A stretch of DNA of 64,000 bases. It comes from Promethearchaeati archaeon. GTDB lineage: Archaea; Asgardarchaeota; Heimdallarchaeia; JABLTI01. The notes beneath the pieces are model-generated. The model was not told the DNA's origin. It searched no databases and worked only from the letters and a program-made list of their open reading frames with translations. Numbering within the stretch: the stretch's first letter is position 1; each line of letters opens with the position of its first letter. Shown here one piece after another: positions 35,257-51,268 of the stretch. Position numbers and translations under genes: made by a program. The DNA lies in assembly GCA_013166835.1 (NCBI GenBank), contig JABLTI010000002.1, positions 594-64,593 on the forward strand, in the 5' to 3' direction.

Positions 35257-36072
35257 ATGTCAAAAATGTTTCAAAGAAAAATTGTTTTACTTGGAGATCC
35301 AGGAGTTGGTAAGACAAGTTTAGTACAAAGATACATTTTTGATTCTTTTAAGAAAGACTATATGACTACACTTGGTCTAAATTTCTATGTAAGAACATTC
35401 GAGTATCCTGGAGCTAAAGTTAAGCTAATGATTTGGGACATAGCTGGTCAACAAAGCAGAAGAAAAATAGGTTTAAGATATTTACAAGGAGCTTCAGGAG
35501 CTATCCTTGCATATGATTTAACCAAAGAAGAAACTTTTGATAATTTGCCTGGTTGGTATGATGATTTAAAGGAAGCAAATGGTAAAGATGTCCCGGTTAT
35601 TGTTGTTGGCACTAAATTAGATTTAGCAAAATCAAATCGTCTTCCATTAGCTTATAATGTTAAAAAGCTGGGTGATACACCTGCTGCCAAAGCTAATTTA
35701 ATTTTCACAAGTGCGAAAACTGATACTAATGTAGATGCTGCTTTCAATTTAATCATCCAAGAAATTGTAAGTGGTTTAATACCAACACCAGATATTTCTC
35801 CAAAAATTCTAGAAGAAATAGCTACAAAGATTTTATTTTTTGTTAAAAAAGGTGATGCTTGGTCTAAAGTGGCATTAAATCATATTGAGAAAGTTGGCAA
35901 GAAATACGCTTTAGAAGTCGAAACGATAGATGCTGAAAAGGATCCTAATATTGCTGAAGCATATGGGATAACTGCATTGCCCACCATTCTTGTTGCTGGA
36001 CGTCAGTTGGTTGGTATAATACAAATTGCTCATCTCGAGAGTATTATGCACCAAATTATCGAAAACAAGTGA
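35257..36072 (+). CDS. Rab/Ras-like small GTPase fused to a C-terminal thioredoxin-fold domain lacking CxxC
   Basis: G1 GDPGVGKTS, G3 WDIAGQQ, G4 GTKLDL, G5 TSAK. Residues ~185-271 read like a small archaeal Trx/Grx (ILFFVKKGDAWSKVAL...ETIDAEKDPNIAEAYGITALPTILV.GR..VG), with DAWS where the CxxC would be. Confidence 0.8.
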   Translation: MSKMFQRKIVLLGDPGVGKTSLVQRYIFDSFKKDYMTTLGLNFYVRTFEYPGAKVKLMIWDIAGQQSRRKIGLRYLQGASGAILAYDLTKEETFDNLPGWYDDLKEANGKDVPVIVVGTKLDLAKSNRLPLAYNVKKLGDTPAAKANLIFTSAKTDTNVDAAFNLIIQEIVSGLIPTPDISPKILEEIATKILFFVKKGDAWSKVALNHIEKVGKKYALEVETIDAEKDPNIAEAYGITALPTILVAGRQLVGIIQIAHLESIMHQIIENK

Positions 36073-36074
36073 GA

Positions 36075-36881
36075 TTATTTGTATTTTTTCTGTATTTTCC
36101 CATCGGGACTGTACCCTTCTCTCATTCTATGACCAGCAATATATTGAAAAATTTTCCCTTGACAAGTTGTAAGTTTTTGTTGGATTTCAAATTCATTTGT
36201 GAAATTAATAAATTCATCAATTCTTGTTGCCAAATCCTCTAATTCATTTCTTGACAAACGGTTTCCTGCACTAGTAATGCATTGTACAAGTCCATCTGAA
36301 ACCTGAGTAAGTATTTCCTTCCCTGGAAAGAATGTAACTAGTCCAATGATTTCCCATAAAATGTTGTAGGTGATATCCTTGTTTTCTTTTTCAGAGAAAT
36401 ATTCGGCAACTTGTGATAAAGCCATAGCATAATTAAACTGAACGAAAGGATTGGTTTGATGTTTTCTCGCAAAATTACCAAGTTTAGTTAGTGTTCTATG
36501 AACATTTTTGTCCATTTCATTCATAATATAATGATAAATTAAAGCCCCTAATGCTTCACCGTAAAATTCTTGCAAATCCTCTGATTGTGACTGTGATTTT
36601 AGAATTGCTTCAATTTTAGCAATCATCTGTTCACAATCTCTGAATTTCTTTGCAACTCCAAATGGTTCCAAAGCATGTCTATAAGCTTCTGCTAATAACA
36701 ACTGAATTTCAGCATCCCCTCTATGATGCTTCACTTCTTTTTCAAAATCGCTGAGAGTTTGCACGACTGATCTGAGATTGCCAGTTTTTCCGTTCGAAAT
36801 GATTACATTAATCAAAGCTTTGAGGTTACTCGTTGAAGGCTTTGGCGACATTGTTCTCCAATCTCCGAATCTGCTTTTCAT
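36075..36881 (-). CDS. all-helical hypothetical protein downstream of a small GTPase gene
   Basis: 268-aa ORF made of helix-loop-helix repeats. No TM and no recognised motif. Confidence 0.5.
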   Translation of the reverse strand: MKSRFGDWRTMSPKPSTSNLKALINVIISNGKTGNLRSVVQTLSDFEKEVKHHRGDAEIQLLLAEAYRHALEPFGVAKKFRDCEQMIAKIEAILKSQSQSEDLQEFYGEALGALIYHYIMNEMDKNVHRTLTKLGNFARKHQTNPFVQFNYAMALSQVAEYFSEKENKDITYNILWEIIGLVTFFPGKEILTQVSDGLVQCITSAGNRLSRNELEDLATRIDEFINFTNEFEIQQKLTTCQGKIFQYIAGHRMREGYSPDGKIQKKYK

Positions 36882-36994
36882 ATTTTTTAATTAATCCATC
36901 TATTCATAATTAACTAATTAGTGTTAATAAAGATAGAGGTGATTCAAATAGGACCTTGTGCTATATATTCTGGATATGTCTCTTAAATAATTAA

Positions 36995-37555
36995 TTATTT
37001 AGGTATAGTTGTGTCTTGTTTTGGGCCGTTCAGCTTCTTTTCGATTGTAGTGTCTATGATAACATTAGCAATTGCTTGAAAAACATCATCCACACCATCA
37101 CCTGTAGCTGAAGAGGTTTCAAGATATGTCTCGAAGTTATATTTTTCGTTGAGTTCTTCAAAGGAATCCAATTCAAAGGTTATACCTTGTGCCAAATCCT
37201 TTTTTCCGCCTACTAAAATTAGTTTAGTATTACTAGAATTTAAAGCTAGATCAGCCCATTCAGGAATACTATTCAAAGTATTTAGTCTTGTCAAATCAAA
37301 CATAATTACCGTAACAGTAGCACCTTTGAAGTACTTGTCAAAGATTCCCATCTGTTTGAATTGCTCTTGTCCTCCCAAATCCCATATTTGAACTAAAACA
37401 GAATGCTCCCCTGATTGTATTTCATGAGTGTGAAATGCAGCACCTATAGTTAGCTTTGTAGAATCGATAAAACTATTAGTAATATAGCGATGGATTAATG
37501 TTGTTTTGCCAACTCCACCATCTCCTGCTAAAACTACCTTTGCTAATAGTCTCAC
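36995..37555 (-). CDS. Rab/Ras-like small GTPase
   Basis: G1 GDGGVGKTT, switch-I T (KLTIGAAF), G3 WDLGGQEQF, G4 GGKKDL, G5 TSSATG. 186 aa. Confidence 0.85.
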   Translation of the reverse strand: MRLLAKVVLAGDGGVGKTTLIHRYITNSFIDSTKLTIGAAFHTHEIQSGEHSVLVQIWDLGGQEQFKQMGIFDKYFKGATVTVIMFDLTRLNTLNSIPEWADLALNSSNTKLILVGGKKDLAQGITFELDSFEELNEKYNFETYLETSSATGDGVDDVFQAIANVIIDTTIEKKLNGPKQDTTIPK

Positions 37556-44366: not shown

Positions 44367-45707
44367 TTGCTTAAGTTGGAGAAGAATAGCTTGATAAAAA
44401 GAGTGTTAATTATAAAAAATAATCTCCCATTAGTCTATAGAAATTATGAACCTGGTGCAGATCAAAGTCTAGGAACCTCTTTTGGGGATTATCAATCATT
44501 AGTAGAGTCAATTGCAAGTAAAGCTATACATGGTCAACAGAGAGAAGAAATTTCAGGAAATAATAAATTAGTGTATGAATTAGATGAATCGATTCTTTTC
44601 CTTGTTAGTACTGATACAAATGAAGTTGGTGTAATTGAAATCCTCATTCCAGAGCTTAAAAACCTCTTTTTCGCAGTATTTCCCAAAGATTATGTTTTAG
44701 GGTGGACTGGAGATGATACCTCTGTTTTCAAAGGATTTGATTCCAAATTAGATCAATTAAGAAGTGCTTTTGAAAATAGAATTATGACGAAACCAGGGAG
44801 TAGAAGAATTATAGATACACTAAGTGTTATGGAGTTACCTCAAAGATTACAAAAAACAGCCTTAAAAATCCTTGATGCAAAAATAGCTTCCTTTGAGGAA
44901 ATCATTGAAACAACAAATGTTTCACCTCAAGAAGCAGTTGCAAATATACAAGAAATTCTGAATGCTGGATTTCTTTACACGACAAAGATAGGTAATAAGG
45001 TATTTTATTCAGTTAAATCCTTTGGTGAAGCAGCTCCCTTAGTAGCACCACCAAGTATTGCTCCAAGTGTAACACCAACAGCTCCTATTGAACCTGTTCA
45101 AGCAACAACGGCTTCTGATGCCACGATAGGAGTTGAGGTGACAAAGCGAGATGTTAACAAAGGTAATATGCCTTTCTTAATGAAGCAATTCAAGAAGGAA
45201 TTGGATAAAGTCTTTAATACAATCATAAATGGGGAATTGCTTCTCATTGTGCTCGATCCGGAAACTGATAAGAACCAAGTTTTGTTAAATATGATTTTGG
45301 ATACTTTCCAATGTTTTGTCCCTGAACGTGAATTACGTATTGTGAATTTTGCTAATGATTTCATTCACCCTAGAGATGCCGATATTATTCGTATAGATAG
45401 AAACCTGATACAATTTTACTCAAATGAAACATTGCTAGATATGGATAGCAAGAAAATCATAAATGGTGATAATTCCATTTATTTAGCAGACATAATAAAA
45501 GAAATGTTGAAATTGAAACATCATTCAGAATGTGTTTCTCTTCTAATAAATCGTGTCGCTCTCATAGAGAAACTTGCTCAAGATTGGGCTAAAATAAAGA
45601 AGTTAAATCTTCCATCTGAAGATTTCATAACAAATGTGAGAACAAAACATAATCCAGCAATCATTGAAGTTATGGATAATGTTGCTGTTAATCTCTTTAT
45701 GGACTAA
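44367..45707 (+). CDS. hypothetical protein: N-terminal longin-like domain, winged helix, A/P/T-rich linker, unknown C-terminal domain
   Basis: IKRVLIIKNNLPLVYRNYEP...YQSLVESIASKAI...LVYELDESILFLVSTDT...IEILIPELKNLFFAVF gives a beta-beta-alpha-beta-beta-beta-alpha pattern. wH segment: TALKILDAKIASFEEIIETTNVSPQEAVANIQEILNAGFLYTTKIGNKVFYSV. Linker: APLVAPPSIAPSVTPTAPIEP. The start codon is uncertain. Confidence 0.5.
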   Translation: MLKLEKNSLIKRVLIIKNNLPLVYRNYEPGADQSLGTSFGDYQSLVESIASKAIHGQQREEISGNNKLVYELDESILFLVSTDTNEVGVIEILIPELKNLFFAVFPKDYVLGWTGDDTSVFKGFDSKLDQLRSAFENRIMTKPGSRRIIDTLSVMELPQRLQKTALKILDAKIASFEEIIETTNVSPQEAVANIQEILNAGFLYTTKIGNKVFYSVKSFGEAAPLVAPPSIAPSVTPTAPIEPVQATTASDATIGVEVTKRDVNKGNMPFLMKQFKKELDKVFNTIINGELLLIVLDPETDKNQVLLNMILDTFQCFVPERELRIVNFANDFIHPRDADIIRIDRNLIQFYSNETLLDMDSKKIINGDNSIYLADIIKEMLKLKHHSECVSLLINRVALIEKLAQDWAKIKKLNLPSEDFITNVRTKHNPAIIEVMDNVAVNLFMD

Positions 45708-45750
45708 TAGTTCACTTAAGAACTATTATCGTCTATTTTTATTTTTTTCA
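45707..45750 (+). terminator. hairpin plus T-tract
   Basis: ATAGTTC (45707-45713) pairs with GAACTAT (45720-45726), then TATCGTCTATTTTTATTTTTTTC. Confidence 0.4.
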
Positions 45751-45894
45751 TCTAATTTTCAGCTAATTGTGCACTATGTGCTTTAATGCTAAAAGTTATA
45801 ATTAATAGTGAAGAATCATAATATTAGTTGAAAAGGTAAATATCGAAATCTTTTTCACAGAATGAGGATTTAATCATAATTAAGGTGTTGAAAT

Positions 45895-46641
45895 ATGACT
45901 GATATTTCAGAAGTTTTGTCAGCTCTGAAACGTGGGGATTTAACCGTTGAAGAAGTCCTGAAAGAGCTGAACGATTTGTTAACAACTGTTAAGAAAGGTA
46001 TAGATGAACTCAAACAACCAATAGAGAATCTAGTTGAGTTTGAAAAAAGACAGAGTGATGAAATATTACAATTTGAATCAGGCAATTTGTCATTGTCACA
46101 AGAAATAGCTTCACTAACTGAAGAAAAAGCTACTAGTGAAAATTCACTTCAAAGAACTCAAGAAGAGTATACTGAGACAACAGAAAAAAGGGTGAAACTT
46201 GAGACAAAGGTCAGAGAGTTATCAACAGAATTGTCTAACACAAAGAAAAGGTTAGAAGCAGCAAATGCAGAACTAGCTGTTGAAACTGAAACTAATCAGA
46301 AAATAGTAGCTGAATTAAGTACTATTGTTGAATCTGCCGAACAAAAAGTTTTAGGAATTGAAAATCAAGCAGAAAAGGAAAGAGATATCATACGAAAATC
46401 AAAAGGTGAACGTATGGCTCTTGAATTTTTGATAAAGAAAAACCACATTGAATTCAATGAAATTAAGGTTATCAACTCATTAGATGGTAGAACTAATACT
46501 GATATGGCAACTATCTCAAAAATTACTGGTTTATCTGAAGCTTTAATATCAAAAACTCTACAAGGTTTAGAAAAAAGAAATTTGATTTCCTATGATGGCT
46601 CAACAGGAGCTATAACCGTGACAGGGAGTATGAAACTTTAG
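45895..46641 (+). CDS. coiled-coil protein with C-terminal winged-helix-like domain
   Basis: About 170 aa of heptad-like E/K/L/T-rich sequence, then a wH-like tail (MATISKITGLSEALISKTLQGLEKRNLISYDGSTGAITVTG). AAGGTG lies upstream of the ATG. Confidence 0.55.
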   Translation: MTDISEVLSALKRGDLTVEEVLKELNDLLTTVKKGIDELKQPIENLVEFEKRQSDEILQFESGNLSLSQEIASLTEEKATSENSLQRTQEEYTETTEKRVKLETKVRELSTELSNTKKRLEAANAELAVETETNQKIVAELSTIVESAEQKVLGIENQAEKERDIIRKSKGERMALEFLIKKNHIEFNEIKVINSLDGRTNTDMATISKITGLSEALISKTLQGLEKRNLISYDGSTGAITVTGSMKL

Positions 46642-46652
46642 GAGGGAAAAAA

Positions 46653-47402
46653 ATGACTGATTTTGTAAATATCCGAAGAAACATAATCGCTGAAAAAGAA
46701 CGACTTGAGAGATTAGCAACTAGCTCAAATCAGAAAATAGCTGATACTGTTAATGAACTTCAGAATGCAGTGGAATTCTTAGATAAAACTGAAGCCACTT
46801 TTAAAGAAATGTCTCAAAATCTTGCTGATCGTAAGAGAGATGAAATTAATAGCAAAGATCAAAGGAAAGAATTGCTTTCAATTATTGACACATTGAAAGA
46901 AAATATAGAAAGAACGCGAATTTCAATCAAAGATGAAGAAGAAAAAAATGACTCACATGAAAAAGAAATCTCACAACTATCAATAGATCTTAGCAACACC
47001 CAGAATGAACTCTCATCTACTCAACACAAAATTACAAACATAAAAGAAAATAATGCTCTAAAAACTCAAGAGAAAACTGATGTAACAGCTAGATTGGAAA
47101 ACCAGTTGACTGAAGCTCAAAGAATTCTAACTAATCTTTCTGAGGAAAAAGAGAAAGAGGTACAACTAAGCCCTATTTTAGATTTCCTTTTGAAAGAAGT
47201 AAGAATAGACATTCCTGAAGTAGAGATATTATCCGTTTTAGCCTATCGAAATCAAGCAATGGGATTGGATGAACTAAAACAAGCGGTTTCAAAAACACCT
47301 CCAGTTATTATCTTAAAAGTAATAAGAAGCCTTGATAGTAAGGGTGTCATCAAATATGATGAGAGATTAGACACTATAGAGCTAACAGCTAATTTAGTTT
47401 AG
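46653..47402 (+). CDS. coiled-coil protein with C-terminal winged-helix-like domain (tandem paralog)
   Basis: Same length (249 vs 248 aa), the same MTD start and the same layout. wH-like tail: ILSVLAYRNQAMGLDELKQAVSKTPPVIILKVIRSLDSKGVIKYDERLDTIELTA. Sits 11 nt after the upstream stop, with GGAGGG. Confidence 0.55.
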   Translation: MTDFVNIRRNIIAEKERLERLATSSNQKIADTVNELQNAVEFLDKTEATFKEMSQNLADRKRDEINSKDQRKELLSIIDTLKENIERTRISIKDEEEKNDSHEKEISQLSIDLSNTQNELSSTQHKITNIKENNALKTQEKTDVTARLENQLTEAQRILTNLSEEKEKEVQLSPILDFLLKEVRIDIPEVEILSVLAYRNQAMGLDELKQAVSKTPPVIILKVIRSLDSKGVIKYDERLDTIELTANLV

Positions 47403-47406
47403 GATT

Positions 47407-47438
47407 GGATTCGACAAAAATTGAATCCCTTTTTTTAT
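47407..47438 (+). terminator. hairpin plus T-tract
   Basis: GGATTC (47407-47412) pairs with GAATCC (47423-47428), then CTTTTTTTATC. Confidence 0.4.
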
Positions 47439-47545
47439 CTTATGATTCAAAATATGACAACAAACTTGATACATTAGATGGATTTATTAATATAATTCAT
47501 GAATATGATTTCGTAGTAAAATATTGACAAAAAACTAATTCATCA

Positions 47546-48103
47546 TTGAAGAGGAAGATTTGTGTGAGCTTCTTACAAAGACTATTCCGGCAAAAAAAAC
47601 AATTCAAAATTGCAGTCGTAGGATTAGATTCTGCTGGAAAAACTACAATGTTAAATTTCTTACGTTTTGAAAAAAACATTGAAACATTGCCTACAATTGG
47701 TGTAAATGTTGAAGTTCTGAAAAGAGAAAATGTTAACTTGAGTATTTTTGATCTCGGTGGACAAATGCATTTTCGAAGTCTTTGGGGAACATTAATGCGA
47801 GGGGCAAGTGCGATTATTTTTGTGGTTGATTCCGCAGATAGTGATCGATTAGAAGAAGCGAAAACTGAATTATGGAAAGTATTACTTGATCCTCAATATC
47901 CTGATGCTCCACTTCTTATTGTAGCGAATAAACAAGATAAAGTAGGAGCAATGCCTGTTGAGGAGATTGTTCGAGCCTGTAATCTAGATGACCCAGTAAA
48001 AATGGGTAGACGTAGCTGGCATATTCAACCAACAGTAGCAACTACTGGACAAGGTGTTGAAGAAGCGATTAAATGGATCGTAATAGAATTAGACAAATTA
48101 TGA
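47546..48103 (+). CDS. Arf/Arl-family small GTPase
   Basis: KIAVVGLDSAGKTTMLNFL, TIGVNVEVL, FDLGGQMHFRSLW, IFVVDSAD, ANKQDK and WHIQPTVATTGQGV are collinear with human ARF1 as recalled (RILMVGLDAAGKTTILYKL, TIGFNVETV, WDVGGQDKIRPLW, IFVVDSND, ANKQDL, WYIQATCATSGDGL). The likely real start is GTG 47564 (GAGGAAG 6 nt upstream), giving the N-terminus (M)SFLQRLFRQKK. Confidence 0.85.
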   Translation: MKRKICVSFLQRLFRQKKQFKIAVVGLDSAGKTTMLNFLRFEKNIETLPTIGVNVEVLKRENVNLSIFDLGGQMHFRSLWGTLMRGASAIIFVVDSADSDRLEEAKTELWKVLLDPQYPDAPLLIVANKQDKVGAMPVEEIVRACNLDDPVKMGRRSWHIQPTVATTGQGVEEAIKWIVIELDKL

Positions 48104-48122
48104 TAGTTGGGGGTATTGTTGA

Positions 48123-48422
48123 ATGGTAGAAATCTCAAGACCTATGATCCTTCGGATTGGAACACCGAAAGTTGAAAAAGATATCAAAAAAGTACATAAA
48201 TTGCTAATTAGTGCAGGATACCAGAAAATTGAGGAAGGAAAATATGCACATAATGCAGAACCTACACTTTCAGCATTGCTACACTTAGATACGATTAAGG
48301 ATCAAGAAGGAAATCCTTTGGAAGAAGTTATAGAATTAATTCTTTCAGATGCTGATAGTTATGTCAATCAAACAATTTATAATGCGTTGGCAACTGTTTT
48401 TCCACTAGAATTAACAAAATAA
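48123..48422 (+). CDS. small hypothetical protein co-transcribed with the Arf-like GTPase
   Basis: 99-aa ORF starting 19 nt after the GTPase stop, preceded by GGGGG. Mixed alpha/beta pattern, no recognised motif. Confidence 0.4.
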   Translation: MVEISRPMILRIGTPKVEKDIKKVHKLLISAGYQKIEEGKYAHNAEPTLSALLHLDTIKDQEGNPLEEVIELILSDADSYVNQTIYNALATVFPLELTK

Positions 48423-48547: not shown

Positions 48548-49561
48548 ATGCCAGAAGAGGATTTCATAATCTCATTAGGTATCGAGAGCACCGCACATAC
48601 ATTAGGTATAGGTATAATTGATTCTACAGGGAAGGAATACAGTGATGTAAAATCCTCCTATATGCCCCCGTTTGGTGAGGGAATTCATCCTCGAGAGGCT
48701 GCGAGACACCATAGTAATAAGGCATCATCTCTGATCGAAGAGGCTCTGAAAGAAGCAAAACTCAAACCAATGGATTTAACATTAATATCATTCTCAAGAG
48801 GTCCTGGAATGGGTCCATGTTTGAGAACAGGAGCAGTGATTGCTCGATCTCTCTCTGGCTTCTATAACATTCCATTAGTTGGAGTAAATCATGTAGTTAG
48901 CCATATAGAAATTGGAAAAATATTAACAAAAGCAAAAGATCCTGTAATTCTTATGGTGAGTGGAGGAACTACACAAATTTCATCACTTGTTGATGATCAC
49001 TATACAATTTTCGGAGAAACCCTGGATATTTCAATAGGCAATTGCTTCGATAAATTCTCTCGAGAAGTAGGAATACATGACCCTAATAATCCGTGGCCAG
49101 GACCTGTATTTGATAAAATCGCTGCAAAAGGAAAAGAGTATTTTGAACTTCCCTATAGTGTGAAAGGTATGAGCGTAAGTTTCTCTGGATTATTAACTGC
49201 TGCAATACGCCTTGTTAAAGAAGAGGCTATATCAATAGAAAATGCTGCTTACAGCTTACAAGAAACAGCTCTCTCAATGCTAACAGAGATAGCTGAAAGA
49301 GCTATAGCCCATACTAGAGCAAAGGAATTATTAGTAGTAGGAGGATTCGCTCGAAATAAAAGATTTCAATCAATGCTTCAAGAAATCTGTGATGATTGGA
49401 ATTTGAAAATGCTTGTTTGCCCGTATAGATATGCAAGTGATAATGGAACAATGATAGCTTGGGGAGGAATTTTACAATATAAAGCAGCTGGCAGTCTTAA
49501 ACCAGAAGAATCTTTAGTTTTACCTGATTGGAGAAGTGATGAGGTAAAAATCATCTGGTAA
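48548..49561 (+). CDS. kae1: Kae1, tRNA N6-adenosine threonylcarbamoyltransferase (KEOPS catalytic subunit)
   Basis: ASKHA-fold start LGIESTAHTLGIGI, metal-binding NHVVSHIE, VSGGTTQ, GNCFDKF, and C-terminal SDNGTMIAW. Not fused to Bud32. Confidence 0.9.
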   Translation: MPEEDFIISLGIESTAHTLGIGIIDSTGKEYSDVKSSYMPPFGEGIHPREAARHHSNKASSLIEEALKEAKLKPMDLTLISFSRGPGMGPCLRTGAVIARSLSGFYNIPLVGVNHVVSHIEIGKILTKAKDPVILMVSGGTTQISSLVDDHYTIFGETLDISIGNCFDKFSREVGIHDPNNPWPGPVFDKIAAKGKEYFELPYSVKGMSVSFSGLLTAAIRLVKEEAISIENAAYSLQETALSMLTEIAERAIAHTRAKELLVVGGFARNKRFQSMLQEICDDWNLKMLVCPYRYASDNGTMIAWGGILQYKAAGSLKPEESLVLPDWRSDEVKIIW

Positions 49562-49590: not shown

Positions 49591-50268
49591 GTGGTTGAAA
49601 TGATAATTAAAGTAGACATTCGCAAACCAAAGAAAGAGACAATTGAAAAAGCTGTAAAGATACTGAAGAAAGGAGGTATCATAGTTTATCCTACTGAAAC
49701 AGCTTATGGTTTAGGATGTGACAGTTTCAATGTTCAAGCGATTAAGAAAATTTATGAAATTAAATCAAGACCACTAGATCAACCTCTTTCAGTAATAGTA
49801 GATAGTCTAAAAATGATTGAAAGAATAGCTTTTATGCAAGAAAATGCAAAGCTTCTGATTGAAAAATTCCATCCTGGTCCTTTAGTGATTGCTCTAAAAA
49901 AGAAAAGTCTTGTCCCTGATGTTTTAAATAAAGATAGAATTGCTTTTCGTATTTCAAATAATGAATTTGTTCAGAACATTGTAAGAAATTTAGGAAAACC
50001 AATTGTGTCAACAAGTGCAAATCAAACTGGCTTTAATTCTCCATATTCAATTGATGATGTTTTGGAATCAATAGCTGAAAAGGCTGTTGATTTGATTTTT
50101 GATGCAGGATCCTTAGAAAAAAACAAACCATCAACTATTATAGATTTCGTCATGCAATCTTCCCCTCAGATAATAAGAGTTGGAGCAATATCTGCAAAAG
50201 AAATTTTTCAAACATTAAAAATAAAAGAAGAATGCTGGGATCAACATCTAACACTCACAAAAGAATGA
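49591..50268 (+). CDS. tsaC: threonylcarbamoyl-AMP synthase, YrdC/TsaC-type (no Sua5 C-domain)
   Basis: KILKKGGIIVYPTETAYGLGCD, PL.VIV, RISN, STSANQTG. 225 aa means the YrdC domain only. Confidence 0.85.
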   Translation: MVEMIIKVDIRKPKKETIEKAVKILKKGGIIVYPTETAYGLGCDSFNVQAIKKIYEIKSRPLDQPLSVIVDSLKMIERIAFMQENAKLLIEKFHPGPLVIALKKKSLVPDVLNKDRIAFRISNNEFVQNIVRNLGKPIVSTSANQTGFNSPYSIDDVLESIAEKAVDLIFDAGSLEKNKPSTIIDFVMQSSPQIIRVGAISAKEIFQTLKIKEECWDQHLTLTKE

Positions 50269-50284
50269 TCTAACAATTGTCCTA

Positions 50285-51268
50285 TTACTTCTTTGCTTTG
50301 TCAGAAATTCCTTTTTCAGTGACGAAGAATACACATTCTCTATCAGGTAATCGTGAGGAATCATACATTCTAGCAATACGAGCTTGATCTCTACCTTTAC
50401 GCAAAAGTATTCTTTGATGTGGTCGGTGCGCCCAAGCAAAACCAAGCGCAGGATGCGGTGATTTGTCAAAAAGACTATCATCCATGGTAGCAATTACTTG
50501 ATTTGTTACTACAATAGCTATATCAAACCTCTCTATCAATTGCTTCATTGTTTCAGCTAAGCGCATAACAGCTTGTTGTCTCGAAACCAATCTATCTTCG
50601 CCAACATATTCTGCTCGAAAATGAGATGCTATTGAATCAATTATGAATAATTTGATATTCCTTTCTTTAATTATCTTTTCAACATTCATTATTAGGAAGG
50701 TTAAATGATCAGAATTGTATGTTCTTGTTACAGCAATGTTATTAAGAAATTTAAGTGGCTTTAAACCATTGCTCTGAGCAATTTGTACTATTCTTGTAGA
50801 AGAAAATGTTCCTTCAGTATCAATATAATATACTCCTCCCTCTAAACCTCCTTGTTCTGGAGGTAATTGAACATTTATACATAATTGGAAACATAGTTGG
50901 GTTTTCCCAGTAGCAAATTCACCAGATACTTCAGTTATTTCTCCTGTGAAAATACCTCCTCCAAGGAGGTTATCTAATTCTGTTGAACCAGTTGAGATCT
51001 TTAGACGCTTCTCTTCCTTTACCAATAAATCTGCAGCAGAAATAGGTTTTTGATCTATCTTAGAAATTGCTTCAGTTATTATTTTCTTAGCAATTTCAAG
51101 GTCAATCTTGATTTTTTCAGATAATTCTTCAGGAGTTAACCAACTAAGAGATTCAACTGTTGAAAATCCTGCAGATTCTAATTTGTCAAGAAGCTCTTTT
51201 GTTACTGATTGTAAATCTTCTAAGTTCTTCTGAAACAAATCCAAACACCTAATAGCTCTTTTTCCCAC
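50285..51268 (-). CDS. radA: RadA recombinase (Rad51/Dmc1 homolog)
   Basis: N-terminal HhH domain (LESAGFSTVESL), GGIFTGEITEVSGEFATGKTQLC Walker A, Walker B LFIIDSI, and NQV...HA motifs. Confidence 0.9.
   Translation of the reverse strand: MGKRAIRCLDLFQKNLEDLQSVTKELLDKLESAGFSTVESLSWLTPEELSEKIKIDLEIAKKIITEAISKIDQKPISAADLLVKEEKRLKISTGSTELDNLLGGGIFTGEITEVSGEFATGKTQLCFQLCINVQLPPEQGGLEGGVYYIDTEGTFSSTRIVQIAQSNGLKPLKFLNNIAVTRTYNSDHLTFLIMNVEKIIKERNIKLFIIDSIASHFRAEYVGEDRLVSRQQAVMRLAETMKQLIERFDIAIVVTNQVIATMDDSLFDKSPHPALGFAWAHRPHQRILLRKGRDQARIARMYDSSRLPDRECVFFVTEKGISDKAKK

What the first reader, a model, noticed from the sequence alone, without database searches (positions are those of the whole stretch)
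47546..48422. Arf-family GTPase with an Arf-like basic-hydrophobic N-terminal extension and a co-transcribed 99-aa unknown partner
Similarity to eukaryotic ARF1 extends beyond the G motifs to the interswitch (TIGVNVE ... FDLGGQ..FRSLW) and the C-terminal WHIQPTVATTGQGV. With the SD-supported GTG start, the N-terminus is (M)SFLQRLFRQKKQFKIAVVG. This parallels the ARF1 membrane-inserting helix region ...ANLFKGLFGKKEMRILMVG, but has no Gly2 for myristoylation. A 99-aa ORF follows after 19 nt with its own GGGGG motif. It is the obvious candidate for a cognate regulator or effector.
Basis: partly seen in the sequence, partly recalled or inferred. Interest (0 to 1): 0.7.

Follow-up and report, generated by a model that had tools for sequence, protein, structure and literature searches.

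The report
Asgard Arf GTPase with small partner
This gene encodes an archaeal relative of the eukaryotic Arf membrane switch whose close ortholog has already been crystallised and shown to bind membranes; the only undescribed part is a small gene of unknown function that always sits directly behind it and may be one of its missing native partners.

Summary
Window 47564-48103 (+) encodes a 179-aa Arf-family GTPase (Pfam Arf, E=3e-51). It is 86.5% identical to GerdArfR1, a Gerdarchaeales (Asgard) protein. GerdArfR1 has published GDP and GTP crystal structures (8OUN/8OUM). Published yeast assays show that its N-terminal amphipathic helix and GTP are both needed for membrane binding. The GTPase, its helix and the missing Gly2 are therefore already known.

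They suggest the published construct starts two codons too early.

The 99-aa ORF (48123-48422) is a real gene under purifying selection (dN/dS about 0.15). It follows the GTPase after 12-19 nt in every orthologous locus that covers the junction, including the GerdArfR1 locus itself. A conserved 17-nt element lies upstream of the pair. The protein is restricted to this clade, has no Pfam or PDB match, and has an almost invariant C-terminal loop-helix. No paper I could search mentions it. Its role as an Arf partner is inferred, not shown: its distances do not co-vary with the GTPase, and its one distant homolog stands alone.

Three genes upstream lies a longin-domain protein with a C9orf72/DENN-like architecture, which is an a priori better regulator candidate.

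The parts
47474..47490 (+). Conserved 17-nt upstream element TTAGATGGATTTATTAA. It contains a TATA-like TTTATTAA and is a probable promoter/operator of the GTPase-p99 unit.
   Evidence: It occurs once in the window as an exact match. The 15-nt core is exact, once per locus, in 19 orthologous loci on the + strand. With up to 2 mismatches the 17-mer is found in 18 of 20 loci (17 plus the window), 81-142 nt upstream of the start codon. It stays with the GTPase in L002, where two genes are inserted upstream. Promoter function is inferred.
47550..47558 (+). Shine-Dalgarno-like AGAGGAAGA, 5-13 nt upstream of the GTG start
   Evidence: Conserved as A/GAGGA(A/C)G at the same spacing in 12 orthologous loci.
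47564..48103 (+). ArfR GTPase gene (179 aa, GTG start, TGA stop); ortholog of GerdArfR1
   Evidence: Pfam Arf E=3.3e-51. PDB 8OUN_A E=1.5e-102. 154 of 178 residues are identical to GerdArfR1. The start is confirmed by comparison. dN/dS is 0.08.
47567..47605 (+). N-terminal amphipathic helix region SFLQRLFRQKKQF (residues 2-14). The hydrophobic face is F3, L4, L7, F8 and F14; net charge is +4.
   Evidence: Sequence. muH is 0.46-0.53. F3, L4, L7 and F8 are invariant in 10 orthologs. The equivalent residues are buried in the GDP-form crystal structure of the ortholog, and the helix is required for membrane binding in yeast.
47621..47644 (+). P-loop GLDSAGKT (G1)
47684..47764 (+). Switch I / interswitch / start of switch II: TLPTIGVNVE ... 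FDLGGQ, with catalytic Gln67
   Evidence: Sequence. The interswitch register shift is shown crystallographically for the ortholog.
47927..47938 (+). NKQD (G4) guanine-specificity motif
48104..48122 (+). 19-nt spacer with GGGGG(T) at 48109-48113, an SD-like site for the 99-aa gene. It is too short to hold an archaeal promoter.
   Evidence: The spacer is 12-19 nt in 13 of 13 loci. Purine-rich SD-like strings occur in most of them.
48123..48422 (+). p99: a conserved, clade-restricted 99-aa alpha/beta protein of unknown function, co-operonic with the GTPase
   Evidence: 41 homolog clusters at 60-97% identity. dN/dS is 0.15. AF2 pLDDT 88, topology b-a-b-b-b-b-a(-b). No Pfam, NCBIfam or PDB match. 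No significant Foldseek match.
48342..48404 (+). Almost invariant loop plus C-terminal helix of p99 (LSDADSYVNQTIYNALATVFP, residues 74-94); the candidate interaction surface
   Evidence: Mean major-residue frequency is 0.97-0.99, against 0.57-0.90 in the rest of the protein. It is not conserved in the distant stand-alone homolog P0042.
47407..47438 (+). Terminator-like hairpin plus T7 run after the upstream gene; the upstream boundary of the unit
   Evidence: Present only in the closest relatives (window, L003-L005, L021), so it is weak evidence.
44391..45707 (+). p446/P0047 (438 aa): N-terminal longin domain, winged helix, disordered linker, then an alpha/beta plus helical C-terminal half with a C9orf72/DENN-like architecture. 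A candidate GTPase regulator in the same conserved block.
   Evidence: AF2 pLDDT 76 with bbabbbaa topology at residues 1-128. Foldseek hits: 7MGE_B (C9orf72 in the ARF1 complex) E=1e-4, and longin domains of Ykt6, Sec22b and VAMP7 with TMt 0.6-0.73. It co-varies with the GTPase, r=0.91.
45895..47402 (+). cc248 and cc249: two paralogous coiled-coil proteins with C-terminal winged-helix domains, 11 nt apart
   Evidence: Pfam coiled-coil and MarR/TrmB hits below threshold. Colinear 23% identity between the two. Conserved in all loci. They co-vary with the GTPase, r=0.90.

Best explanation
Shown by identity to a characterised ortholog: the gene at 47564-48103 is the Gerdarchaeales ArfR GTPase of the GerdArfR1 orthogroup. 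It should work as a nucleotide-controlled membrane switch.
- In the GDP form, the N-terminal helix (F3, L4, L7, F8) is tucked into a pocket formed by the interswitch tip and the C-terminal helix.
- GTP binding shifts the interswitch by two residues. This closes the pocket and releases the basic-hydrophobic helix, which then binds membranes without myristate.

Inferred strongly: the gene is transcribed from its own conserved upstream element as a two-gene operon with the 99-aa gene.

Inferred weakly: p99 is a dedicated binding partner of this ArfR and uses its invariant loop-helix surface (residues 74-94). Because it is a 99-aa single-domain protein with nothing else attached, I favour a regulator of the nucleotide or helix state over a downstream effector. 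The arrangement would be analogous to the bacterial mglBA pair, in which a small GTPase is co-transcribed with its small GAP. The mglBA comparison rests on my own knowledge.
For: GTPase identity:
- Pfam Arf E=3e-51.
- 8OUN/8OUM are the top PDB hits at E=1e-102 over the full length, including the N-terminus.
- The L001 product equals the 8OUN chain at 179 of 179 residues, and the window protein is 154 of 178 identical to it.

Operon:
- The spacer is 12-19 nt in 13 of 13 loci.
- The GTPase is followed by p99 in every locus that covers the junction.
- A 17-nt element upstream of the GTPase is conserved although synonymous sites are saturated (dS about 1.5).
- In L002, two inserted genes separate the GTPase from the upstream genes, yet the 17-nt element, the GTPase and p99 stay together.

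Partner hypothesis:
- The phyletic ranges match: 35 ArfR and 41 p99 clusters, all from the same clade.
- More distant ArfRs lack p99.
- p99 is under purifying selection and has an almost invariant surface that includes polar residues.
- The field states that native regulators of Asgard Arfs are unknown and probably structurally novel.
Against: - All the linkage evidence comes from one narrow clade, in which Kae1, Sua5 and RadA are equally syntenic. Adjacency therefore carries little independent weight.
- The p99 distance matrix correlates poorly with the GTPase (r=0.52, bootstrap 0.27-0.63). The three upstream genes give r about 0.90 and Kae1 gives 0.71.
- The single distant homolog, P0042, is encoded away from any GTPase.
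- p99 has no similarity to roadblock, longin, ArfGAP, Sec7 or any other GTPase-regulator fold. The best Foldseek hits are generic split beta-alpha-beta proteins with TM about 0.5.
- No complex prediction could be run.
- Co-transcription is inferred from spacing only.
Confidence: 0.45

Rival explanations
1. p99 is a lineage-specific small protein that merely shares a transcript or neighbourhood with the GTPase. It may be functionally independent, or it may belong with the downstream t6A genes Kae1 and Sua5 as a small KEOPS-type accessory subunit.
For: The whole block p446-cc248-cc249-ArfR-p99-Kae1-Sua5-RadA is syntenic in all loci, so adjacency alone does not discriminate. p99 does not co-vary with ArfR: r=0.52, about the same as with Kae1 (0.53) and Sua5 (0.57). 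The distant homolog P0042 stands alone beside DUF389 and CCG-domain genes. Small KEOPS subunits are of similar size (own knowledge).
Against: The gap to ArfR is 12-19 nt with an SD-like site. The gap to Kae1 is about 92-224 nt and contains at least one T5+ run in all but the L004/L021 sequence. There is no Pfam hit to Pcc1, Gon7 or Cgi121 at E<=0.1, and no KEOPS chain among the top 50 Foldseek hits. p99 is confined to exactly the clade that has this ArfR orthogroup, whereas Kae1 and Sua5 are universal.
Confidence: 0.3
2. The cognate regulators or effectors of this ArfR are the three upstream genes: the longin/DENN-like p446, possibly a GAP or GEF platform like C9orf72-SMCR8, FLCN or DENN proteins, together with the cc248/cc249 coiled-coil pair. 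p99 would be at most an accessory. This rival is not exclusive of the best explanation.
For: p446 has a canonical longin topology, and its full-length Foldseek top hit is C9orf72 from the C9orf72:SMCR8:WDR41-ARF1 complex (E=1e-4, prob 0.99). Other hits include DENND10, Mon1-Ccz1 and many longin domains. ArfR distances correlate with p446, cc248 and cc249 at r=0.90-0.91. With only 99 random p446 columns the median r is still 0.85, against 0.71 for Kae1. Heimdallarchaeial FLCN/SMCR8-type longins have been proposed as GAPs for ArfR or Rag.
Against: These genes are separated from ArfR by 141-228 nt, and by two inserted genes in L002. In the window and its close relatives a terminator-like T7 hairpin also intervenes, and ArfR has its own upstream element. 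Full-length TM-scores are only 0.2-0.3, so the DENN-like assignment of the C-terminal half is architectural rather than residue-level. There is no sequence-level match. The GP motif described for GAP longins is absent from the beta1-beta2 loop. Mirror-tree correlations are confounded by shared phylogeny and saturation. The winged-helix domains could equally mean DNA binding.
Confidence: 0.3
3. p99 is a downstream effector or adaptor that ArfR-GTP recruits to the membrane, rather than a regulator.
For: The linkage evidence is the same as for the best explanation. An invariant surface is equally compatible with effector binding.
Against: A 99-aa single-domain soluble protein has no second functional module to deliver. 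There are no membrane, enzymatic or oligomerisation signatures.
Confidence: 0.15

Closest known systems
GerdArfR1 (GenBank NHJ47629.1; PDB 8OUN GDP form, 8OUM GTP form), Vargova et al., bioRxiv 10.1101/2024.02.28.582541; cited as Nat Microbiol 2025
   Same: Same orthogroup: 154 of 178 residues identical. It has the same N-terminal SFLQRLFRQKKQFK, the same G motifs, no Gly2, and the same 8-gene neighbourhood, including a 103-aa p99 ortholog 18 nt downstream.
   Different: It comes from a different MAG or species, with 13.5% substitutions, mostly in helix alpha3-alpha4 surface positions. The published 181-aa construct starts at an ATT two codons upstream of the conserved TTG/GTG start, so its 'Leu3' is probably the native initiator Met. 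The preprint has no hits for operon, neighbour or genomic context.
Eukaryotic Arf1/Arf6 (and Sar1, Arl8, which also lack myristate)
   Same: 40-47% identity to Arf1, Arf4 and Arf6, which are the next-best hits after the orthogroup. The motifs GLDxAGKT, PTIGxNVE, DxGGQxxxRxxW and NKQD are shared. It has an N-terminal amphipathic helix and, in the ortholog, an interswitch toggle.
   Different: There is no Gly2 and no myristoylation. The helix is more basic (net +4 against +1 for ARF1 residues 2-13) and less hydrophobic. The hydrophobic triad residues are V, F, L rather than F, W, Y (sequence; own knowledge of Arf1). No Sec7 GEF or ArfGAP domains are known in Asgard genomes.
Asgard AArfs of Zhu et al. 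2025 (PMC11914678), e.g. Heim12F4_9-5
   Same: A membrane-binding AArf clade from Gerd-, Heimdall- and Hodarchaeales, with GTP- and helix-dependent binding to liposomes, including liposomes of archaeal lipids. L006 is from the same MAG (12F4_9) and carries an 85%-identical ortholog of the window protein.
   Different: I could not verify that Heim12F4_9-5 is the L006 gene. No supplements are held, and the published numbering (T28, Q68) is offset by one.
Bacterial mglBA operon (MglA small GTPase plus MglB roadblock GAP)
   Same: This is an analogy only: a prokaryotic small GTPase co-transcribed with a small single-domain protein that regulates it (own knowledge; context).
   Different: p99 is not a roadblock/LC7 protein. 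There is no Pfam hit, and the topology is b-a-b-b-b-b-a rather than a-b-b-a-b-b-b. No activity has been shown.
C9orf72-SMCR8 / FLCN-FNIP / DENN family longin-DENN proteins (for the upstream p446)
   Same: An N-terminal longin domain followed by an alpha/beta plus helical C-terminal half. The top structural hit is C9orf72 in its complex with ARF1.
   Different: A winged-helix domain and a disordered linker are inserted between the halves. There is no GP motif and no assignable Arg finger. There is no sequence similarity, and full-length TM-scores are low.

Membership tests
Arf family (Pfam PF00025; ArfR clade of Asgard archaea) | Matches the Arf family profile above the curated threshold, and better than other small-GTPase families | tested here: met
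   Arf 173.6 bits (cut-off 22.3), against Roc 52, Ras 44, SRPRB 40 and Gtr1/RagA 25. Two Ras-type GTPases in the same window score the other way round.
Arf family (Pfam PF00025; ArfR clade of Asgard archaea) | Arf-type G motifs: GLDxAGKT, T in PTIG (switch I), DxGGQxxxRxxW, NKxD | tested here: met
   GLDSAGKT, TLPTIGVNVE, FDLGGQMHFRSLW and NKQD.
Arf family (Pfam PF00025; ArfR clade of Asgard archaea) | N-terminal amphipathic helix preceding the G domain | tested here: met
   A 14-residue extension, SFLQRLFRQKKQF, with muH 0.46-0.53 and the hydrophobic residues F3, L4, L7, F8 invariant. The moment is not significant against shuffles (p about 0.09-0.2). Helicity and burial are shown by the 8OUN structure of the 86.5%-identical ortholog.
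Arf family (Pfam PF00025; ArfR clade of Asgard archaea) | Interswitch two-residue register shift coupling GTP binding to helix release | not testable with these tools
   Shown crystallographically for GerdArfR1 (8OUN against 8OUM) and HodArfR1. The interswitch sequence of the window protein matches that ortholog at all but one position, E55 for Q (alignment).
Arf family (Pfam PF00025; ArfR clade of Asgard archaea) | Phylogenetic placement inside the ArfR plus eukaryotic Arf/Arl/Sar clade | not tested
   No outgroup set or tree software was used here. The placement is published for the ortholog. In support, after the orthogroup (>=74% identity) the next-best hits in 5.8e9 proteins are eukaryotic Arf1, Arf4 and Arf6 at 40-47%.
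Arf proper (Arf1-6 type) | Gly2 for N-myristoylation | tested here: not met
   Residue 2 is Ser in all 13 orthologs. Published work also notes no Gly2 and myristate-independent binding.
Roadblock/LC7 (MglB-type GTPase regulators), tested for p99 | Profile match and a-b-b-a-b-b-b topology | tested here: not met
   No Pfam or NCBIfam hit at E<=0.1. The predicted topology is b-a-b-b-b-b-a(-b). No roadblock chain appears among the top 50 Foldseek hits for p99.
KEOPS small subunits (Pcc1/Pcc2/Gon7), tested for p99 | Profile or fold match to Pcc1/Gon7 | tested here: not met
   No Pfam hit, no PDB sequence hit with the single sequence or the profile, and none among the top 50 Foldseek hits.
Longin domain, tested for upstream p446 | b-b-a-b-b-b-a-a topology and a structural match to longin domains | tested here: met
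   DSSP elements E2-9, E12-18, H32-44, E50-55, E58-65, E68-74, H81-96, H99-128. Foldseek hits Ykt6 3BW6, Sec22b 1IFQ, VAMP7 2VX8, sigma-adaptins and zeta-COP with prob 1.00 and TMt 0.5-0.73.
Longin-DENN GAP proteins (C9orf72/SMCR8/FLCN), tested for upstream p446 | Longin plus DENN two-lobe architecture | tested here: inconclusive
   Full-length hits to C9orf72 (7MGE_B E=1e-4; also 6LT0_C, 7O2W_B) and DENND10 (8P0V_M). However, TM is 0.2-0.3 and rmsd exceeds 16 A because of domain orientation. No domain-level search was possible.
Longin-DENN GAP proteins (C9orf72/SMCR8/FLCN), tested for upstream p446 | GP motif in the beta1-beta2 loop and a catalytic Arg finger (PMC12290439) | tested here: not met
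   The loop reads K-N-x-x-P (for example KNNLP, KNGVP) with no GP dipeptide. No Arg could be assigned as a finger.

The most novel reading that the evidence does not exclude
The five-gene stretch 44391-48422 is a native regulatory module of an Asgard Arf. It comprises the longin/DENN-like p446, the coiled-coil/winged-helix pair cc248/cc249, the ArfR, and p99. On this reading p99 is a new, archaea-specific class of small Arf-binding regulator with no eukaryotic counterpart, and p446 is a pre-eukaryotic relative of the C9orf72/FLCN-type longin GAPs acting on an Arf. These would be the first native GAP, GEF or effector candidates for any archaeal Arf, and they sit beside the very protein whose crystal structures already exist.
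Probability: 0.2. Interest if true: 0.75.

Novelty: new member of a known kind. Interest (0 to 1): 0.4.

Why it matters
The GTPase itself adds nothing new. Asgard ArfRs with a functional N-terminal amphipathic helix, including this exact orthogroup, were published with structures and cell assays.

What is useful is the context. Both experimental papers and a review leave open what regulates Asgard Arfs in their own cells. One states that native GEFs and GAPs are probably structurally novel and escaped structure-based searches. Another notes that Asgard GTPases are generally not in operons with regulators, which makes partners hard to predict.

Here the crystallised GerdArfR1 has an invariably co-operonic 99-103-aa partner and a longin/DENN-like neighbour. 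That gives laboratories that already hold the purified GTPase two concrete, cheaply testable candidates. A secondary practical point is that the published construct probably carries two non-native N-terminal residues ahead of the membrane helix.

Tried and rejected
- Complex prediction. No interface prediction exists.
- p99 function by homology. Pfam, NCBIfam, PDB sequence searches (single sequence and profile) and Foldseek against PDB all failed. The best fold hits (ZipA, PII-like SbtB, MoaD-related; TM about 0.5, E>=3.5e-3) are generic split beta-alpha-beta sandwiches. I draw no function from them.
- Distant p99 relatives. A profile search of 1.84e9 representative proteins found only the family's own cluster plus P0042. 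The remaining hits (a repeat protein and a peptidoglycan-binding-repeat protein) look spurious. The metagenome scan returned only close relatives.
- Mirror-tree test for ArfR-p99 co-evolution. The result was negative (r=0.52), and instead pointed to the upstream genes. I treat it as exploratory: 13 taxa, non-independent pairs, different saturation between genes.
- Hydrophobic-moment significance test of the helix. It is not significant for such a short peptide, so I relied on the crystal structure.
- The TTG start at 47546 given by the ORF listing. Rejected on comparative grounds.
- Identification of Heim12F4_9-5 with the L006 gene. This could not be checked because no supplements are held.
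- Bacterial-type promoter scan. Not informative for an archaeon (22 found, 19 expected). Rfam found nothing in the window.
- The Nature Microbiology version of the ArfR paper is not held. Absence of any mention of the neighbour was checked only in the preprint and in PMC11914678.
Full report
**1. What is there**

The window has about 33% G+C. Around the finding it carries archaeal housekeeping genes: Kae1/TsaD at 48548-49561, Sua5 at 49591-50268 and RadA at 50285-51268 on the minus strand. One is a GTPase ORF ending at 48103. After a 19-nt spacer, TAGTTGGGGGTATTGTTGA, comes a 99-codon ORF at 48123-48422.

**2. The GTPase**

The GTPase matches Pfam Arf at 173.6 bits (E=3.3e-51) over almost the whole profile, against 44-52 bits for Ras and Roc. 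Two other small GTPases in the same window, at 35257-36072 and 36995-37555, score the other way round (Ras 140 and 122 bits, Arf 48 and 42 bits). This serves as an internal control. The Arf-type motifs GLDSAGKT, TLPTIGVNVE, FDLGGQMHFRSLW, NKQD and PTVATTGQ are all present.

**3. It is already known**

A sequence search of the PDB returned 8OUN_A and 8OUM_A at E=1.5e-102 and 2.9e-95. The alignment runs end to end and includes the N-terminal SFLQRLFRQKKQFKIAVVG. These entries are GerdArfR1 (GenBank NHJ47629.1, Gerdarchaeales) from Vargova et al. That paper reports the following:
- the GDP-bound full-length structure and the GTP-bound truncated structure;
- the N-terminal amphipathic helix folded back into a hydrophobic pocket in the GDP form;
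- the interswitch rearrangement between the two forms;
- loss of ER and plasma-membrane binding in yeast when the helix is deleted or GTP binding is blocked;
- explicitly, the absence of Gly2.

Zhu et al. (PMC11914678) independently showed GTP- and helix-dependent, myristate-independent liposome binding for a related clade of Asgard Arfs. Locus L001 (VIKN01000081.1) encodes a protein identical to the 8OUN chain at 179 of 179 aligned residues. The window protein is 154 of 178 (86.5%) identical to it.

A search of 5.8e9 proteins shows a tight orthogroup of 35 clusters at 74-91% identity (one fragment at 95%), followed by a gap to 47% or less. The next hits are eukaryotic Arf1, Arf4 and Arf6. The best of them, P0124, sits on a contig whose neighbours hit the eukaryotic mitochondrial families Pam16 and MMM1.

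**4. Start codon**

In 12 orthologous loci the position equivalent to 47564 is always GTG or TTG, and a conserved A/GAGGA(A/C)G lies 7-9 nt upstream. In L006 and L010 a stop codon directly precedes it, and in L002 a stop lies one codon further upstream. The codons before it are not conserved.

The deposited GerdArfR1 (181 aa) begins at an ATT two codons upstream of the TTG in L001. This looks like an annotation artefact. The 'Leu3' described as buried would then be the initiator Met. With Ser at position 2, Met removal and N-acetylation are plausible; this last point is inference from general knowledge.

The helix has a hydrophobic arc formed by F3, L7, F14, L4 and F8, and a net charge of +4. 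Its muH is 0.46-0.53, comparable to ARF1 residues 2-17 (0.42). It is not significant against shuffles at this length.

**5. The 99-aa gene is real and tightly linked**

The gene has 41 homolog clusters at 60-97% identity. Most are about 99-112 aa, and all come from Heimdall-, Gerd- or Asgard-labelled MAGs or from metagenomes. Median pairwise dN/dS is 0.15, against 0.08 for the GTPase, with dS about 1.5.

I examined loci from three directions: starting from p99, starting from the GTPase, and the GerdArfR1 locus itself (L001). In every locus that covers the junction the order is ArfR then p99, and the spacer is 12-19 nt in the 13 loci measured. That is too short for an archaeal promoter, and it usually holds a purine-rich SD-like string. 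More distant ArfRs, such as L013 (Hodarchaeota, 44%) and L014 (42%), have no p99.

**6. A conserved element upstream of the pair**

The 17-mer TTAGATGGATTTATTAA lies at 47474-47490, 90 nt before the GTG, and occurs once in the window as an exact match. Its 15-nt core is exact, once per locus, on the coding strand, in 19 orthologous loci. With up to 2 mismatches the 17-mer is found 81-142 nt upstream of the start in 18 of 20 loci (17 plus the window). The surrounding intergenic sequence is not alignable.

In L002, two bPH_2 genes are inserted between the upstream genes and the GTPase. The element, the GTPase and p99 nevertheless remain together. I read this as the promoter/operator of a bicistronic ArfR-p99 unit, with TTTATTAA as a TATA-like box. 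This is inference.

A hairpin plus T7 at 47407-47438 follows the upstream gene, but it is found only in the closest relatives.

**7. What p99 looks like**

AlphaFold2 with a 30-sequence alignment gives a confident model (pLDDT 88, pTM 0.77). The topology is b1-a1-b2-b3-b4-b5-a2 plus a short terminal strand.

There is no Pfam, NCBIfam or PDB sequence match, either with the single sequence or with the profile. Foldseek against the PDB gives nothing below E=3.5e-3. The top hits are generic split beta-alpha-beta proteins such as ZipA and PII-like SbtB, with TM about 0.5. The protein is not roadblock, longin or Pcc1-like.

Conservation is strikingly uneven. The loop at 75-79 and helix at 80-92 (SDADSYVNQTIYNALATVF) are almost invariant, including polar positions that should face outward. 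Strands b4 and b5 vary freely. This pattern suggests an interaction surface, but that is inference.

A profile search of 1.84e9 representative proteins found only one credible distant relative, P0042 (106 aa, E=1.4e-5; hhalign probability 97%, 31% identity). P0042 lacks the conserved helix sequence. It is encoded alone, next to DUF389, CCG-domain, PAP2 and Rio2 genes, and not near a GTPase.

**8. Is p99 the partner?**

Arguments for:
- the operon structure;
- the matching phyletic range;
- the invariant surface;
- the field's expectation that native Asgard Arf regulators are structurally novel.

Arguments against:
- All loci belong to one narrow clade, in which the entire block p446-cc248-cc249-ArfR-p99-Kae1-Sua5-RadA is syntenic.
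- The stand-alone distant homolog is not linked to a GTPase.
- An exploratory mirror-tree test on 13 taxa gave r(ArfR,p99)=0.52 (bootstrap 0.27-0.63). That is no better than p99 against Kae1 (0.53) or Sua5 (0.57).

I therefore put direct partnership at about 0.45. If it is true, I favour a regulator over an effector, because p99 has no second module.

**9. The upstream genes**

p446 (P0047, 438 aa, 44391-45707) is also restricted to this clade, with 42 clusters. Its AF2 model (pLDDT 76) shows four parts:
- a canonical longin topology at residues 1-128;
- a winged helix at about 143-207;
- a disordered linker at 211-245;
- an alpha/beta plus helical C-terminal half.

The Foldseek top hit is C9orf72 in the C9orf72:SMCR8:WDR41-ARF1 complex (7MGE_B, E=1e-4, 501 aligned columns). 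SR-alpha, other C9orf72 entries, DENND10, Mon1-Ccz1 and many isolated longin domains follow, the latter with TMt up to 0.73. Full-length TM-scores are low (0.2-0.3), so the DENN-like call for the C-terminal half is architectural only.

The GP motif reported for GAP-type longins, including heimdallarchaeial ones, is absent from the beta1-beta2 loop. There is no sequence-level PDB match.

cc248 and cc249 are paralogous coiled-coil proteins with C-terminal winged helices. In the mirror-tree test the GTPase correlates with these three genes at r=0.90-0.91. With only 99 random p446 columns the median r is 0.85, against 0.71 for Kae1. This is suggestive, but it is confounded by phylogeny and saturation.

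**10. Literature check on the neighbour**

The ArfR preprint and PMC11914678 contain no occurrence of operon, neighbour or genomic context, and the single 'adjacent' hit refers to protein structure. No held paper combines ArfR, Asgard and operon. Tran et al. state that Asgard GTPases are generally not in operons with regulators. Zhu et al. report two C9orf72-SMCR8-like candidates that lack the Arf-interacting regions. I could not tell whether p446 is one of them. The Nature Microbiology version of the ArfR paper is not held.

**11. Verdict**

The 99-aa gene is a genuine, invariably co-operonic, clade-specific protein, and its link to the GTPase is plausible but unproven. The added value is a set of concrete candidates for the unknown native partners of a structurally characterised Asgard Arf: p99, and the upstream longin/DENN-like protein with its coiled-coil pair. 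Interest is moderate (0.4).

Noticed in passing
window 44391-45707 (+): A clade-restricted 438-aa protein with an N-terminal longin domain, a winged helix, a disordered linker and an alpha/beta plus helical C-terminal half. Its best structural match is C9orf72 from the ARF1-bound C9orf72:SMCR8:WDR41 complex. A highly conserved RSAFENRIMTKPGSRR motif follows the longin domain, partly in a low-confidence loop.
   Followed up: partly
window 45895-46641 and 46653-47402 (+): Two paralogous proteins of about 250 aa (23% identity, colinear), each an N-terminal coiled coil plus a C-terminal winged-helix domain. They are 11 nt apart and conserved in all orthologous loci, so they may form a heterodimer.
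   Followed up: partly
window 44391-48103, compared across 13 loci: Pairwise protein distances of the ArfR correlate much better with p446, cc248 and cc249 (r about 0.90) than with Kae1 (0.71), Sua5 (0.41) or p99 (0.52). This hints that the three upstream genes and the GTPase evolve in concert. The result is exploratory and confounded by phylogeny.
   Followed up: partly
window 36887-36903 (-): A 2-mismatch copy (ATAGATGGATTAATTAA) of the 17-nt ArfR upstream element lies 6 nt before the ATG of an unannotated 268-aa ORF (36075-36881, no Pfam hit). That ORF sits directly downstream of a Ras/Rab-type GTPase gene (36995-37555, -). It may be chance: 5 matches at up to 3 mismatches against 1.4 expected.
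   Followed up: partly
window 35257-36072 (+) and 36995-37555 (-): Two further small GTPases of the Ras/Rab type lie about 10 kb from the ArfR. The first carries a C-terminal extension of about 100 aa after the G domain.
   Followed up: no
L001 5437-5982 (GerdArfR1 locus, VIKN01000081.1): The deposited, crystallised GerdArfR1 (181 aa) starts at an ATT codon two codons upstream of the conserved TTG/GTG start, leaving almost no spacing to the SD. The native protein probably starts MSFLQ..., so the construct likely carries two extra N-terminal residues ahead of the membrane helix.
   Followed up: yes
L002 3369-5126: In one divergent ortholog locus, two bPH_2 (bacterial PH domain) genes, one on each strand, are inserted between cc249 and the ArfR. 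The 17-nt element, the ArfR and p99 remain contiguous.
   Followed up: partly
L016 1164-1484: The only credible distant homolog of p99 (P0042, 106 aa, 31% identity) is a stand-alone gene on an archaeal-looking contig, beside DUF389, CCG-domain, PAP2 and Rio2 genes. It shares RxPMI, (A/S)GY, H and LSDA(D/E) but not the C-terminal helix sequence.
   Followed up: partly
window 47407-47438 (+): A hairpin (8 bp) followed by T7 lies directly after the cc249 stop codon. It is conserved only in the closest relatives.
   Followed up: yes
window 47497-47679 (-): A 60-codon antisense ORF overlaps the ArfR start region. I have no evidence that it is a gene and treated it as a chance ORF in AT-rich sequence.
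   Followed up: no
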